Source of the DNA: Eledone cirrhosa
Taxonomy: Eukaryota
Reading direction: 5' to 3'
Assembly (NCBI GenBank): GCA_964016885.1
Contig: OZ024748.1
Coordinates: 19,220,001 to 19,284,000 of the forward strand
Length of the DNA: 64,000 bases
In this document: positions 2,087 through 62,877 of the stretch, in pieces
Position numbering within the stretch: position 1 is the first letter of the stretch
Layout: every line of letters starts with the position of its first letter
Program-made: the position numbers and the translations under genes
The notes under the pieces: generated by a model
The model's database searches: none
What the model saw: only the letters and a program-made list of their open reading frames with translations
What the model was told of the DNA's origin: nothing

Positions 2087-2770
2087 TATCTTTATACCTC
2101 TTCACGAAAACAAACCGTGTTCAGCATAGACCCTGTGGCCGCTAACACATATATATATATATATAATATACACACACACAATCACACACACACACACGTA
2201 CAGACAGACAGACAGTCACACACACACACACACAATCACACACGCACGTACAGACAGCCACCCCCCCCACACACAATCACACACACAATCACACACACGT
2301 ACAGACACACACACACACACACACACACACACACACACACACACACACACACACACATACACACACACACACACACAAACACGCGCGCGCACACACACAC
2401 ACACACACCTGTATATATTCTCTACTAACTGTGATATTCTATACCAGGAAATGAAACAACATTGTGTCATACGATATAGATATCTTATAAATGATATATT
2501 TTACAGATAACCCACATTTCAATGTGTTACCAATATGACACGTGTAGTATCGCGTTGATCTCGTTTTTATTTCCGTGAATGTATGCGTGTATATATATAT
2601 ATATATATATATATATATATATATATATATTATATATATAATCTAGGAGGTGAGTTTTATTGTAGTACAATAAAGCAATGCAGATATCGGATAAGAAGCA
2701 CTCTACAGTTTGTAGGACTGGAGTATACATAATATATAAGAACAAAAGATGGTTAAAAGAGTTCCATGTA

Positions 2771-2837
2771 TTTTATTATGCGCATTTCAAAAACAAATAT
2801 CATCATGCAATAATATTTGTGTTTTCATCAGATAAAA
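2771..2837 (-). ncRNA. Type I hammerhead ribozyme (mirror copy in the left arm)
   Basis: Reverse complement of 2960-3026. Confidence 0.8.
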
Positions 2838-2959
2838 CAGGAAGACATGATATGAAGGTTAAAAAACACCTGTGGATAATGCAGTTTTAAATCAACATAT
2901 GTTGATTTAAAACTGCATTATCCACAAGTGTTTTTTAACCTTCATATCATGTCTTCCTG

Positions 2960-3026
2960 TTTTATCTGATGAAAACACAAATATTATTGCATGATGATAT
3001 TTGTTTTTGAAATGCGCATAATAAAA
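2960..3026 (+). ncRNA. Type I hammerhead ribozyme with palindromic stem III
   Basis: TTTTAT-CTGATGA-long stem II (AAACACAAATAT..ATATTTGTTTTT)-GAAA-TGCGCA-TA^ATAAAA. All core residues present; 6-bp stem I. Confidence 0.8.
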
Positions 3027-3769
3027 TACATGGAACTCTTTTAACCATCTTTTGTTCTTATATATTATATTATATATATATATATATATATATATATATA
3101 TATATATATATATATATATATATATATATATATATATATATATATATATATATATATATGTGTGTGTCTGTGTGTATATATTTTGTATGTGTACACACAC
3201 ACACACACATATATATATATATTATTGTCTGTGTGTGTATATATATATATATATATATATATATATATATATATATGTGTGTTTGTGTGTGTGTCTGTGA
3301 GTATTTATATATATATATATATACTTTTTTTCATACATACAGATACGAATTAGTTTAAAATTTTAGAAGCGAAAAATTTGCAACGAACGAAGACAATTTG
3401 TTATTGTGTCTGTGGTGTGTATGTGTGTGTGTATGTGTGTGAGTGCATATGTATGTGTTTGTGTGTATGTTTGTGTGTATGTTTGTGTGTATGTTTGTGT
3501 GTGTATGTGTGCATGTGTGTGTGTGTGTGTGTTAGTAAGTATGTGTAAGTATGTGTAAGTGTGCTTTAACAGCTGTGTTTGGTTACCGGAATCAATTCTC
3601 TTAACTGACATGTCGAGTGTTTAACAAATGTGAAACAATCTGCAGCTTAAGTGATGCTTTTCACTCAACAAGTGTTACTTGCCTGTATCAAGTGAGCACT
3701 CTTGTCTTTATATCTCTCACTTTCTATATCTTTTTATATACCTGTCCGTTCGTCTGTCTACCCGTCTGC

Positions 3770-4500
3770 CCGTTTATCTGTGTGTCTGTCTGTCTGACTG
3801 TCTGTCTGTCTGTCTGTCTGTCTGTCTGTCTGTCTGTCTGTCTGTCTCTCTGTCTGTCTGTCTGTCTGTCTGTCTCTCTCTCGCTTTCTCCCCTCTCTCT
3901 CTCTTTGTCTGTTAAATTGTCCGGCTATGTCTCTCTCTCTCTCTCTCTCTCTCTCTCTCTCTCTCTCTTTTTGTCTGTTAAATTATCATTCTCTCTCTCT
4001 TTCTCTTTTTGTCTGCTAAATTATCATTCTCTCTCTCTCTCTCTCTCTCTCTCTCTCTCTCTCTCTCTCTCTCTCTCTCTCTCTCTCTCTCTCTCTCTCT
4101 CTCTGTTTAACTGTTCGTGCATCTGTCTGTTCAGTTCTCTGCCATGTCAGTCAATCGTTCTGTCTATTTTTTCTCTGTCTTTCTCTCTTTCTCTCTGTCT
4201 ACCATCTCCCTGTTTCCTTATCTATCAATCTCTTATCTCTCTACCACCCTGCCTCTCTATCTCTCTCTCTCTCTCTCTCTCTCTCTATCTATCTATCTAT
4301 CTATCTACCTATCTATCTATCAATCTATCTATCGCCCTGTCACACTCTCTCTCTCTCTCTCTCTATCTATCTATCTCTCTATCTATCTATCTATCTATCT
4401 ATCTATCTATCTATCTATCTATCTATCTATCTATCTATCTATCTATCTCTCTCCCCCCTCTCCCCCCTCTATCTATCTATCTCTCAGTCTCACTATCTCA
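3770..4500. repeat. (TCTG)n/(CT)n/(TCTA)n compound microsatellite
   Basis: Direct reading. Confidence 0.92.
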
Positions 4501-4860
4501 CTGACTATCTATCACCTTGCCTCTATGTCTATCTGTCCGTCTATCCCAATTCACACGCGAATAGGTCTATTTTACATAATACAGCAAATAAGATAGAAGC
4601 AGCCCATAGCCTCAAGATTTGCTGTGATGTGGCGTGTTAGGAAGAAACGGCATGGCAATTTATCCTCAATCTAGATCACAAAGAAAGGCATTAACTAAAC
4701 AAACGGCTGATAGAATTTAGAAGGAAATGAAAGTAGCCATTCGTTAGACTGGACCAAGTAAACTATATTTCTATTACTGATACTTTCTGTTGGTAGCGGC
4801 TTCTGGCAGAGATTGGGAGAAGGAGTGTTTGAGGACTCTGCAGCATCACGACCCTGGGCT

Positions 4861-5372
4861 AAAAAGGAGGAGAAGGAGGAGGAGGAGGAGGAGAAGAAGA
4901 AGAAGAAGAAGAAGAAGAAGAAGAAGAAGAAGAAGAAGAAGAAGAAGAAGAAGAAAAAGAAGATGAAGAAGAAGACAGAAAGAAGAAGGAAAAGAAGATG
5001 AAGAAGAAGACAGAAAGAAGAAGGAAAAGAAGATGGTGATGAAGAAGAAGGAGAAGAAGAAGGAGAAGGAGAAGAAGAAGAAGAAGAAGAGGTAGAAGAA
5101 GAAGAAGAAAAAGAAGAAGAAGAAGAAGAAGAAGAAGAAGAAGAAGAAGAAGAAGAAGAAGAAGGAAAAGAAGATGAAGAAGAAGAAGAAAAAGGAAAAG
5201 AAGAAGAAGAAGAAGAAGAAGAAGAAGAAGAAGAAGAAGAAGAAGAAGAAGAAGAAGAAGAAGAAGAAGGAAAAGAAGATGAAGAAGAAGAAGAAAAAGG
5301 AAAAGAAGATGAAGAAGAAGACAGAAAGAAGAAGAAGAAGAAGAAGAAGAAGAAGAAGAAGAAGAAGAAGAA
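4861..5372. repeat. (GAA)n-rich polypurine tract
   Basis: Direct reading; about 510 bp, almost entirely purines. Confidence 0.95.
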
Positions 5373-60600: not shown

Positions 60601-60694
60601 TTGCAAAATAATGATGGGATGTTTTGATTTGTAGCTTCACTCTACAGTCTCTTACTACTTACTATATTATTGTATCATTATCACATCACCGCAA

Positions 60695-60903
60695 CTGGTG
60701 CCGCGTTAGATGTACCACTGGTGCAGTCAGTCTTTGGGGATGCCGCTCTAGATGTGCCATTGGTGCAGCCTGTCATTGGGGTGCCACACTAGATGTGCCA
60801 TTAGCGCAGCCAATTTCTGGGTTGCAAGTGGGGCAACAAGTCTTTGGGGGTGCCACAGGTGCAGCCAGTTTTTGGTGTGCCACTCTAGACACTTTTGCAG
60901 TCA
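60695..60903. repeat. GC-rich ~41-42-bp minisatellite, about 5 units
   Basis: TAGATGT at 60707, 60749 and 60790. Confidence 0.8.
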
Positions 60904-60944
60904 GGTTGTCACTTTTGGTCTCTATTCTCCGTGATGCATAGAAG

Positions 60945-61600
60945 AGTCTCGGTATTGTGACCATTCGAGTCTTTGATGTTGTCAGACTGGTATTTTTTTC
61001 TTTGTCTGTGACCTGAAGGAAGGTTTTGAACAAGGAATTGTGTGTGTGTGTGTGTGTGTGTGTGTGTGGGGAATAGACCCTAGGTACTTGAAGGTGTCCA
61101 CCACTTCAAGTCTTCCTCCCGCCAGCATGATATTGGTTGCTGTATTCTCGTGGACTGGCAGTAACGGTAGAGGGTCGGACGCCATGCTTTGCAGCATAGA
61201 GTTACGGCCTTTTACGATCTGAGTTCAAATCCCACCGAGGTTAACTTTGCCTTTCATCCTTACGGGGTCGATAAAAGAAAGTATCAGTAATACACTGAGG
61301 TAATTACCAAAAGTAGAAACAATTACTATTAACCAGAACTTTGCTCTTTTCTGAGCTGATCTCCATCCCATATGGTACTGATACTTTATACAATCTGGTG
61401 GTATTGAACTCTTGGAGTTCTATTTCACTGCTTCCTAACAACTCAATGTCATCAGCAAATTATTAGCTGGAAATGTGCCATCCTCCAAAAGAAACAGAGG
61501 TGTGGAAACTTAGAGTCTCTCTTGTATGACATTTTCCAGAAAGATGTTGAATAACATTGAATAACAATGGAGACACTCTTGTAGAATTATCCATTGTTAT
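60945..61600 (-). mobile_element. Degenerate RTE-like reverse transcriptase fragment, interrupted by a SINE (61151-61325, +) and (CA)n
   Basis: LFNIFLENVI..FADDIELLGSSEIELQE..YGMEISSEKSKVLV/..LEVVDTFKYLGSI with stops and frameshifts. Confidence 0.82.
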
Positions 61601-62031
61601 TCAAAACTGCACTTTTTGAATTATCATATAGGGCTTCGATTACTTGAATAAGGTTTATGTAATTTGTTATCACAAGTTGTAATCCATTATCACAATATAA
61701 TGTTCGTATATTATTTTAACGCCTATTACGTCTTAACCTTTCGGAGGCTGGTCATTCATCTGAAGATAGCAGATGAGAGGAGAGGATGTTTGGAAGTGAG
61801 AATACAAAAATGAAGACTGACGAGAACAGACAATCTTGAATCTGTACACACACACACACACACACACACACACACACACACACACACACACACACACACA
61901 CACACACACACACACACACACACACACACACACACACAAATATATGTGTGTATTTATATGTGTATATGTGTATATATGTATATATGTATATATATACATA
62001 CACACACACACATATATATATATATATATAT

Positions 62032-62745
62032 AATTCTTTATAATTATCTCCAAATTATTTTGTTGAGCAAAAATTTGCCAAAACTGCTACTATAGTTCAT
62101 AGTAATAGTTCGGCTACTGTCTTCTTAACACCCCACTCCTCACTGATTAACCTCGATGTCACGTGATTGATTCTTTTGAATTTGCCACCGACCAAGTAGG
62201 CAGTGATTTTTTCAATGTCTTGGAATTTAGTCCTCGCTTGCTTTTTTTCCATCCACTGAATTATTTTTGTATAAGTTCCCTGTGTTCACGCATCGCCTGG
62301 GAACTTAGCTAAGAATTGACTTCCTGATGACGAAAGGCATTCTCCATGTTGTCCATTCGGAAACCATGTTTATTCCCTTTCAGAAACTAATTAGTTGGAG
62401 TGAAATTTTAGTAAGTAAGTTAATTTTTATAACATTCTTATTTTACGTCTTTCATATAATTGTTCTGCATCCCCTTGCATTGAACCACAAAGTTACTAAG
62501 AAAAAGCCTATATATTTGCTAGCATAGGTATGCATCTGTATATATATGTTGGTAGATATACAAATTCTTTATAATTATCTCCAAATTATTTTGTTGAGCA
62601 AAAATTTGCCAAAACTGCTACTATAGTTCATAGTAATAGTTCGGCTACTGTCTTCTTAACACCCCACTCCTCACTGATTAACCTCGATGTCACGTGATTG
62701 ATTCTTTTGAATTTGCCACCGACCAAGTAGGCAGTGATTTTTTCA
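62032..62745. repeat. 183-bp identical direct repeat (62032-62214 / 62563-62745)
   Basis: Direct comparison; no mismatch seen. Confidence 0.9.
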
Positions 62746-62877
62746 GAATTAGCCGTCGAAACTGCTTGAGCTCAGCCGTCGGGATCCTACTCATTCCTAT
62801 TACCCACTCTACTACCCTAAGTATTGAGTACTTTGGTGCGTTATGGTCCTTCTGGTTCCTTATCACATTTCCTTCGT
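62745..62877 (+). mobile_element. PLE family B copy
   Basis: Matches 22085-22217; ends in (TA)n. Confidence 0.7.

What the first reader, a model, noticed from the sequence alone, without database searches (positions are those of the whole stretch)
2640..62877. Window-wide rule: several short families sit in (TA)n with 3' ends facing outward
Seen in families A (35105, 50141, 51945, diverged 10646), B (39597), C (36676, 39827, 40480, 49958), D (2640) and at 36912: a longer arm plus an inverted shorter arm, usually both ending at (TA)n. Known: PLEs leave partial inverted repeats, and some clades associate with microsatellites. Inference: non-autonomous ribozyme-carrying retroelements primed from both strands of a (TA)n target, seeding long hairpins at high density. 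In a cephalopod these would be ADAR substrates.
Basis: partly seen in the sequence, partly recalled or inferred. Interest (0 to 1): 0.75.

Follow-up and report, generated by a model that had tools for sequence, protein, structure and literature searches.

The report
Head-to-head Penelope retrotransposon ends in microsatellites
The hairpins in this octopus-like genome are mostly ordinary, shortened ends of Penelope-type jumping genes sitting head to head in TA repeats, likely made when the element's RNA is copied from both sides of a DNA cut; they are so numerous that they could be a major, still untested, source of double-stranded RNA for RNA editing.

Summary
The rule is real and holds beyond the window. 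In 1.17 Mb sampled on a grid, 117 of 162 A-D matches have (TA)n at the 3' side and 14 at the 5' side (background 7.6%). Of 47 inverted neighbours, 43 face outward; 38 pair a tail-bearing arm with an arm ending at a fixed inner site 57-81 nt earlier, and none pair two tails. A, B and D are not non-autonomous: they are 5'-truncated ends of RT + GIY-YIG Penelope-like elements (PLEs; A Neptune/Nematis-type, B and D Hydra-type by motifs). E is an ORF-less ~550-bp hammerhead tandem unit; no ORF was found for C. They are not MITEs. Inverted pLTR, one-sided tail, (TA)n bias and two RT start sites are all published. Added here: genome-scale counts, TA microhomology at 7 of 7 readable ends, both arms usually from one source, and a share of inverted-repeat potential. 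ADAR editing is untested (no RNA run was listed). This scan has already reported two-armed PLE footprints on other DNA of this genome and in another genome.

The parts
2641..2901 (-). Family D tail-bearing arm (3' end at left (TA)n); end of a Hydra-type PLE
   Evidence: master ORF L320:3217-5267
2896..3068 (+). Family D tail-less arm ending at the inner site (about -81)
2960..3026 (+). Predicted type I hammerhead in D (CUGAUGA core, palindromic loop III)
   Evidence: motif and pairing; no Rfam hammerhead match
10647..10886 (+). Diverged A-like copy: 22-nt inverted arms, about 72-nt tail to (TA)n
22082..22217 (+). Family B solo tail arm (-135..0)
29224..29503 (.). C-like pair with 3' ends facing inward across a microsatellite (exception to the rule)
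33641..33667 (+). Family A solo fragment ending at the inner site
35106..35149 (-). Family A tail arm (-44..0), no overlap with its partner
35148..35335 (+). Family A tail-less arm (-266..-57) with hammerhead motif
36678..36853 (.). Family C head-to-head pair (inner-ended arm 36678-36739 on -, tail arm 36779-36853 on +)
36908..37294 (.). Family E pair (inner arm 36908-37033 on -, tail arm 37070-37294 on +); part of an ORF-less ~550-bp hammerhead tandem unit; this copy stops short of the ribozyme
39598..39786 (.). Family B pair (tail arm 39598-39729 on -, inner arm 39728-39786 on +); end of a Hydra-type PLE; holds only the 3' half of the ribozyme
39827..40012 (.). Family C pair (inner arm 39827-39887 on -, tail arm 39883-40012 on +)
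39884..39930 (+). Predicted minimal type I hammerhead in C
   Evidence: core in 53 of 59 copies; no Rfam match
40190..40455 (.).
40480..40605 (+). Diverged family C copy
49958..50110 (+). Diverged family C copy
50142..50560 (.). Family A: long tail-less arm 50142-50482 on - (-414..-57), short tail arm 50491-50560 on + (-69..0)
51949..52535 (.). Family A near-perfect hairpin: inner arm 51949-52210 on -, tail arm 52210-52535 on +; end of a Neptune/Nematis-type PLE
52268..52312 (+). Predicted type I hammerhead in A (CUGAAGA core)
   Evidence: core in 65 of 68 copies; no Rfam match
62744..62877 (+). Family B solo tail arm (-133..0)

Best explanation
Families A, B and D are 5'-truncated 3' ends of autonomous Penelope-like retrotransposons, E is an ORF-less hammerhead tandem unit likely moved by them (C is unresolved), and their head-to-head pairs in (TA)n likely arise when the element's enzyme cuts both strands of a TA tract and copies the RNA from two fixed start sites, one per strand. 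Shown: ORF linkage, two fixed 3' ends per family, (TA)n at 3' ends only, outward orientation, tail + inner pairing, 3-7 nt of TA identity between the element and the target at each readable end, both arms usually of one subfamily. Inferred: the GIY-YIG nuclease nicks both strands; each 3'-OH pairs with a short UA stretch of the RNA (tail end on one strand, inner site on the other); both cDNAs stop early, in B and C often within the hammerhead; host end-joining links the two cDNA ends, sometimes with templated filler. Where the arms overlap, the insertion is a palindrome that would fold into dsRNA if transcribed.
For: ORFs: A, a 1169-aa frame with RYVDD, CX4CxxC and GIY-YIG in tandem 4.05-kb units whose pLTR and tail run into the next ORF; closest homologue 69% from Octopus vulgaris, named RT-domain protein. 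D and B: YRDD, DKT, CxCX5C and GIY-YIG upstream of 1.1-1.2 kb UTRs. Ends and orientation. In search-picked loci, 60 of 90 B/C/D copies have an inner-ended inverted arm within 400 nt, 2 a tail-ended one, 28 none. Microhomology at 7 of 7 ends whose continuation is readable, chance per site 5-10% for 3 nt. Arms concordant at 367 of 405 polymorphic site comparisons against 0.50-0.57 shuffled (A had no usable sites). In 15 of 46 pairs the tail-less arm reaches >15 nt further 5' than the tail arm, and 6 pairs share essentially nothing; such joints also appear in contigs of public runs. Filler of 10 nt or more is templated in 10 of 15 joins against 1.6 expected. In vitro, a PLE protein cleaves and extends both strands and starts at two RNA sites bounding the tail (PMC11167929).
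Against: 24 of 46 pairs are symmetric within 15 nt at the centre and some joins sit on small palindromes, which fold-back also predicts; asymmetric centres could be later deletions. About 42% of tail-ended matches in the grid (38 of 74 paired) would be needed to call pairing a minority or majority; it is about half, so solo arms are common. PMC11167929 found initiation not homologous to the cut DNA, unlike the microhomology seen here. Pfam gave nothing for the whole A ORF and only sub-threshold GIY-YIG (E 0.014) and RVT_1 (E 0.004, in a homologue) hits; PDB none. Rfam matched none of four hammerheads. B's core reads CTGAGAA in 42 of 43 copies. No ORF for C in 25 + 3 loci. No empty site was seen.
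Confidence: 0.72

Rival explanations
1. Fold-back or self-priming: one cDNA (or an antisense template) folds back at a small palindrome and copies itself up to the inner site; asymmetric centres come from later deletion.
For: Published proposal for head-to-head Penelope copies with palindromic joins (PMC3846280). 24 of 46 pairs are symmetric within 15 nt; D joins cluster at a CATATG palindrome; arms are more alike than either is to the reference in 32 of 34 pairs.
Against: 22 of 46 pairs are asymmetric, including young ones (arms 97-100% to the reference), and 6 have no overlap. Inner-ended arms occur without a partner within 400 nt in 23 of 65 cases. It needs a separate reason for the fixed inner end, which matches a measured RT start site in another PLE.
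Confidence: 0.2
2. Two independent insertions landed by chance in the same (TA)n tract.
For: TA tracts collect many nested elements; the 4 grid pairs with 3' ends inward look like neighbouring events.
Against: 0 tail + tail among 47 grid pairs, no TA tract between arms in most joins, same subfamily on both arms.
Confidence: 0.03
3. TIR MITEs or foldback DNA transposons that target (TA)n.
For: Hairpin shape, short length, TA flanks; target duplications cannot be read in (TA)n.
Against: Centres and lengths vary, one arm carries a 57-103 nt extension, and A, B and D run into RT + GIY-YIG frames.
Confidence: 0.02
4. Assembly or library fold-back artefacts.
For: Palindromes are a known long-read artefact (recalled).
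Against: Arms differ by 1-17%, stop at family-specific sites and never include flanking DNA; family joints occur in contigs of public runs (one run may be the assembly's own sample).
Confidence: 0.02

Closest known systems
Endonuclease-bearing PLE insertions with inverted 5'-truncated pLTR and one-sided tail (Craig et al. 2021, PMC8557442, passages and Hydra section read; Arkhipova et al. 2013, PMC3846280, passages read)
   Same: Inverted 5'-truncated copy next to the 5' end, tail at one end only, head-to-head orientation, palindromes at joins, hammerhead in the pLTR, target duplications unreadable in microsatellites.
   Different: Tails here are 57-103 nt against the 30-40 bp described; most copies are reduced to 100-400 nt so the two arms touch; counted here on an unbiased sample.
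Hydra-clade PLEs (PMC8557442, section 11)
   Same: B and D masters: C-terminal GIY-YIG, CxCX5C linker, DKT motif, hammerhead, insertion into (TA)n ('almost all families').
   Different: No tree was built; long 3' UTRs (1.1-1.2 kb); B has a non-consensus ribozyme core.
Neptune/Nematis PLEs
   Same: A master: C-terminal GIY-YIG preceded by CX4CxxC, a linker proposed to confer microsatellite bias.
   Different: The two clades were not told apart; the A ORF has an Asn/Thr-rich insert.
Poseidon from Anolis carolinensis in vitro (Frangieh et al. 2024, PMC11167929, parts 1-2 of 4 read)
   Same: Both strands cleaved and extended; two RT start sites bounding the tail; uncut RNA is the main template (here 5' ends do not pile at predicted ribozyme cut sites).
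   Different: They report initiation not homologous to the cut DNA and no strand preference of start site; here ends carry TA microhomology and pairs are strictly tail + inner.
Metazoan non-LTR retrozymes (Cervera and de la Pena 2020, PMC7229834, search listing only; Li, Clavereau and Pollet 2026, 10.64898/2026.07.22.740005, parts 1-2 of 5 read)
   Same: E: ORF-less tandem units with a type I hammerhead, derived from or moved by PLEs.
   Different: E inserts as two opposed arms with PLE-type ends; cleavage and circular RNA not tested.
L1 twin priming (recalled; search listing only)
   Same: Two primers on opposite target strands, one internal to the RNA, joined by end-joining.
   Different: Twin priming inverts without duplicating and uses variable internal sites; here the inner site is fixed and arms usually overlap.

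Membership tests
EN+ Penelope-like element (A, B, D) | Single ORF with RT and C-terminal GIY-YIG | tested here: met
   A 1169 aa open; B and D in frameshifted copies; motifs; Pfam hits only sub-threshold
EN+ Penelope-like element (A, B, D) | pLTR in tandem or inverted arrangement with optional tail | tested here: met
   A tandem units with pLTR + tail running into the ORF; tail + inner pairs
EN+ Penelope-like element (A, B, D) | Type I hammerhead in the pLTR | tested here: inconclusive
   Motif and stems met in A and D; B core non-consensus; Rfam no match
EN+ Penelope-like element (A, B, D) | RT phylogeny within PLEs | not tested
   No reference PLE set at hand; no tree built
EN+ Penelope-like element (C) | Linked RT + GIY-YIG ORF | tested here: inconclusive
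   Longest copies (~600 nt) start in a degenerate microsatellite; no shared ORF in 25 + 3 loci; the ORF in L324 appears to belong to another element
Hydra clade (B, D) | CxCX5C linker, DKT motif, no CCHH, (TA)n target | tested here: met
   against PMC8557442 section 11; one B copy has F for the first C
Neptune/Nematis (A) | CX2-5CxxC linker before a C-terminal GIY-YIG | tested here: met
   PMC8557442 passages
Naiad | N-terminal GIY-YIG, no canonical hammerhead | tested here: not met
   GIY-YIG is C-terminal in A, B, D
Non-LTR retrozyme (E) | ORF-less tandem units each with a type I hammerhead | tested here: met
   ~550-bp spacing, 1.3-2 units per arm; core intact in 26 of 34; no PLE-protein match adjoining the units
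Non-LTR retrozyme (E) | Self-cleavage and circular RNA | not testable with these tools
   No RNA holder listed for the one stretch searched
TIR MITE | Fixed length with matched terminal inverted repeats | tested here: not met
   Variable centres, one-sided 57-103 nt extension
TIR MITE | Target-site duplication | tested here: inconclusive
   Unreadable inside (TA)n

The most novel reading that the evidence does not exclude
PLE insertion in this genome is obligately two-ended: one enzyme complex primes one RNA from both strands of a cut (TA)n tract through short UA pairing at two fixed sites, and the roughly 100,000 resulting palindromes are the main dispersed source of perfect dsRNA behind octopus hyper-editing, the counterpart of the palindromic Harbinger in frog.
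Probability: 0.3. Interest if true: 0.65.

Novelty: new member of a known kind. Interest (0 to 1): 0.36.

Why it matters
PLE insertion is still not worked out, and papers differ on how inverted copies form (self-priming in PMC3846280; two start sites and both strands in PMC11167929). This genome gives thousands of short, young products with a strict tail + inner rule and TA microhomology, so the models can be tested statistically and in vitro. Porath et al. 2017 (PMC5625713, passages read) found octopus extreme in hyper-editing and dsRNA potential but left it out of the repeat analysis. Here 2.6% of non-simple 50-bp windows have a near-perfect inverted partner within 2 kb; 21% of those lie in families A-E, PLE ORFs or tail-signature repeats, a further 29% in other inverted repeats ending at TA, and 1.5% in the SINE tested. 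For annotation, these elements will be mislabelled as MITEs or miRNA hairpins.

Tried and rejected
Rfam on the window: the 150 rows listed of 524 were all below gathering score and nearly all miRNA models on hairpins and microsatellites, none a hammerhead; four short scans found no hammerhead. Pfam and PDB found nothing for the whole A ORF. The protein atlas did not answer. Expression: no RNA holder listed, so no evidence either way. Empty-site alleles: not obtained; the stretch laid shows family joints only. Ribozyme-cut RNA as template: rejected as the main route, since 5' ends cluster at -127..-140 (B, 20 of 30 paired ends) and -129..-139 (C, 14 of 24), not at the predicted cuts -97 and -93 (ends of diverged copies are limits of homology). 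Arms from different parent copies (lead e1-9539494): not the rule here, 367 of 405 concordant, though 8 pairs differ at 2 or more sites. ADAR scars fixed in DNA (lead e1-8671701): 0 of 461 copies polarised overall; local clusters A>G 2 (one locus, L115), T>C 1, C>T 1, G>A 0 of 518, no clear excess. C master: not found. A shared tail stem-loop: GAGYRCT occurs in 9 of 25 representative tails against 0.3 shuffled and 3 antisense, but predicted stems were short and inconsistent, so no structure is claimed. One search counts one tandem array at least 11 times and was not used for shares. L319 was fetched on the wrong side and one grid stretch did not exist. Host gene context: the ORF list was not followed up. 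Supplements were not read; Frangieh Fig. S1-S2 and Craig files S1-S2 may hold octopus families or junction data that bear on novelty.
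Full report
Observation. The window is 32.6% GC and full of (TA)n tracts. Eight head-to-head pairs have 3' ends outward. The sharper rule is that each family has two fixed 3' ends: a tail end and an inner end 57 (A), 77 (B), about 75 (C), 81 (D) or 103 (E) nt earlier. A pair joins one of each. Length is secondary: at 35106 and 50142 the tail-less arm is the longer and the arms barely overlap, so these do not form long hairpins. Solo arms and one inward-facing C-like pair (29224/29503) also occur.

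Beyond chance. The genome is 3.0 Gb. I took 117 stretches of 10 kb at round-number positions and searched them with natural copies. A-D gave 162 matches and E none. (TA)>=4 lies within 12 nt on the 3' side in 117 and on the 5' side in 14; random positions give 7.6%, and a SINE control 8 and 7 of 255. Of 47 adjacent opposite-strand pairs within 400 nt, 43 face outward: 38 tail + inner, 1 inner + inner, 4 with an unclassed end, and none tail + tail. The 4 inward pairs look like neighbouring events. SINE pairs split 7 to 5. About half of tail-ended matches are paired (38 of 74). A de novo scan found 131 inverted repeats; 47 have one end at TA and the other 30-130 nt short of it (2.5 expected), and 31 of those are other families. 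Among 51 such sense arms (grid and window), 17 hold a type I hammerhead-like motif with family-specific stem I pairing, against 0 on the antisense strand and 0.1 in shuffles. Extrapolating 38 pairs per 1.17 Mb gives about 100,000 for A-D (inference).

What they are. Long A copies run upstream into a GIY-YIG coding end. A tandem array holds a 1169-aa frame with RYVDD, a CX4CxxC linker and C-terminal GIY-YIG, and its pLTR and tail run into the next ORF. Its best of 143 homologues is an Octopus vulgaris protein at 69%. Pfam and PDB miss the whole ORF, with sub-threshold GIY-YIG and RVT_1 hits on a piece and on homologues, so the call rests on motifs and homologues. D and B lead through 1.1-1.2 kb UTRs to RT + GIY-YIG frames with DKT and CxCX5C, the Hydra-clade marks; that clade is reported to insert almost always in (TA)n (PMC8557442). 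E is a ~550-bp ORF-less tandem unit with a hammerhead. C's longest copies begin in a degenerate microsatellite and no ORF was linked. Hammerhead cores are conserved in A (65 of 68), C (53 of 59), D (55 of 55) and E (26 of 34); B reads CTGAGAA in 42 of 43. Rfam matched none of the four tested. Minimal PLE hammerheads with palindromic helix III are described in PMC4209133 (passages). The window's B and E copies lack a whole ribozyme.

How it likely works. At all 7 ends where the element's own next letters can be read (both ends of A and E; inner ends of B, C, D), they continue with 3-7 nt of alternating TA, against 5-10% per site by chance; inner ends of C, D and E spread over a few nt. The two arms of a pair match at 367 of 405 polymorphic comparisons against about 0.5 shuffled and are more alike than either is to the reference in 32 of 34, so one event and one source is the norm. 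Centres: 24 of 46 pairs are symmetric within 15 nt, 15 have the tail-less arm reaching further 5', 7 the reverse, and 6 share essentially nothing. Contigs of public runs show B joints of the non-overlapping kind (one run may be the assembly's own sample). Filler at joins is templated in 10 of 15 cases, which resembles polymerase-theta end-joining (recalled). 5' ends do not pile at predicted ribozyme cuts. The best fit is cleavage of both strands of (TA)n, priming at the tail end on one strand and the inner site on the other, early stops, then joining. A PLE protein does extend both strands and start at two sites bounding the tail in vitro (PMC11167929). The main rival is self-priming at palindromes (PMC3846280) with later central deletion; it explains symmetric pairs well, and my data do not exclude it.

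Known versus new. An inverted 5'-truncated copy, a tail at one end only, head-to-head orientation and microsatellite bias are all in print. PLE-derived retrozymes are in print. Penelope-like families are annotated in O. vulgaris (PMC13282606, passages). Earlier notes of this scan describe two-armed PLE footprints in this genome and another. In seven searches and the passages read I did not find the strict tail + inner pairing counted, TA microhomology at both start sites, or octopus dsRNA traced to PLEs; subscription papers and supplements were not seen.

ADAR. Five window pairs fold into helices of 36-141 uninterrupted bp. With a test modelled on Porath et al. 2017, 717 of 27,846 grid windows outside simple repeats have a near-perfect inverted partner within 2 kb: 62 in A-E or PLE ORFs, 86 in other tail-signature repeats, 211 in other repeats ending at TA, 11 SINE, 347 unassigned; 723 more are simple repeats. 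A few large arrays weigh heavily, so 21-50% is a rough range. That paper reports Penelope as massively edited in lizard and octopus as extreme, without repeat analysis for octopus. Transcription and editing here are untested, and editing scars in DNA show no clear excess.

Verdict. Observation confirmed, interpretation partly right. These are new members of known PLE clades plus one retrozyme-like unit, showing published architecture at very high density. Interest 0.36. The bolder reading (obligate two-ended, microhomology-guided priming that supplies most octopus ADAR substrate) has probability about 0.3 and would merit 0.65.

Noticed in passing
window 6477-7155, 11628-12361, 47548-47974, 52882-53236, 59945-60613 and others: Abundant ~190-bp SINE-like family, often in short tandems; used as control (29 matches in the window, 255 in the grid), no (TA)n bias.
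   Followed up: partly
window 29224-29503; L317:692-1287; L309:6740-7270: Inverted pairs centred on a microsatellite with 3' ends inward; L317 is a palindrome of two whole head-to-head units with 231-nt arms 100% identical, suggesting a later inverted duplication about a TA tract.
   Followed up: no
L193:3852-9047 and L267: 310-bp hammerhead tandem array with opposed arms of about 1.7 kb starting at (TA)n; earlier notes of this scan describe a 310-nt family.
   Followed up: no
tails of B, C, D, window 40300-40400 and several de novo families: Shared motif GAGYRCT 19-50 nt past the inner site, often preceded by CTC; candidate protein-binding signal of Hydra-type elements (9 of 25 representative tails).
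   Followed up: partly
L115:1503-1975 and 3002-3248: Family D copy with local A>G clusters, possibly an edited RNA copied back into DNA.
   Followed up: partly
L031 (G000:C4:94.67-94.78 Mb): Tandem array of ~4.05-kb family A units, one with an open 1169-aa frame carrying an Asn/Thr-rich insert.
   Followed up: partly
window 11001-11078, 28643-28719 and 35021-35078: Two further short dispersed families lying between (TA)n tracts (11 and 19 matches among fetched DNA); probably other PLE ends.
   Followed up: no
window 12584-14196, 15054-17547, about 42260-46000: Minisatellite arrays with 23-, 110- and 17/34-bp periods.
   Followed up: no
window 53373-56377 and 62033-62745: Rearranged ~650-bp repeats with inverted pieces, and an exact 182-bp direct duplication.
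   Followed up: no
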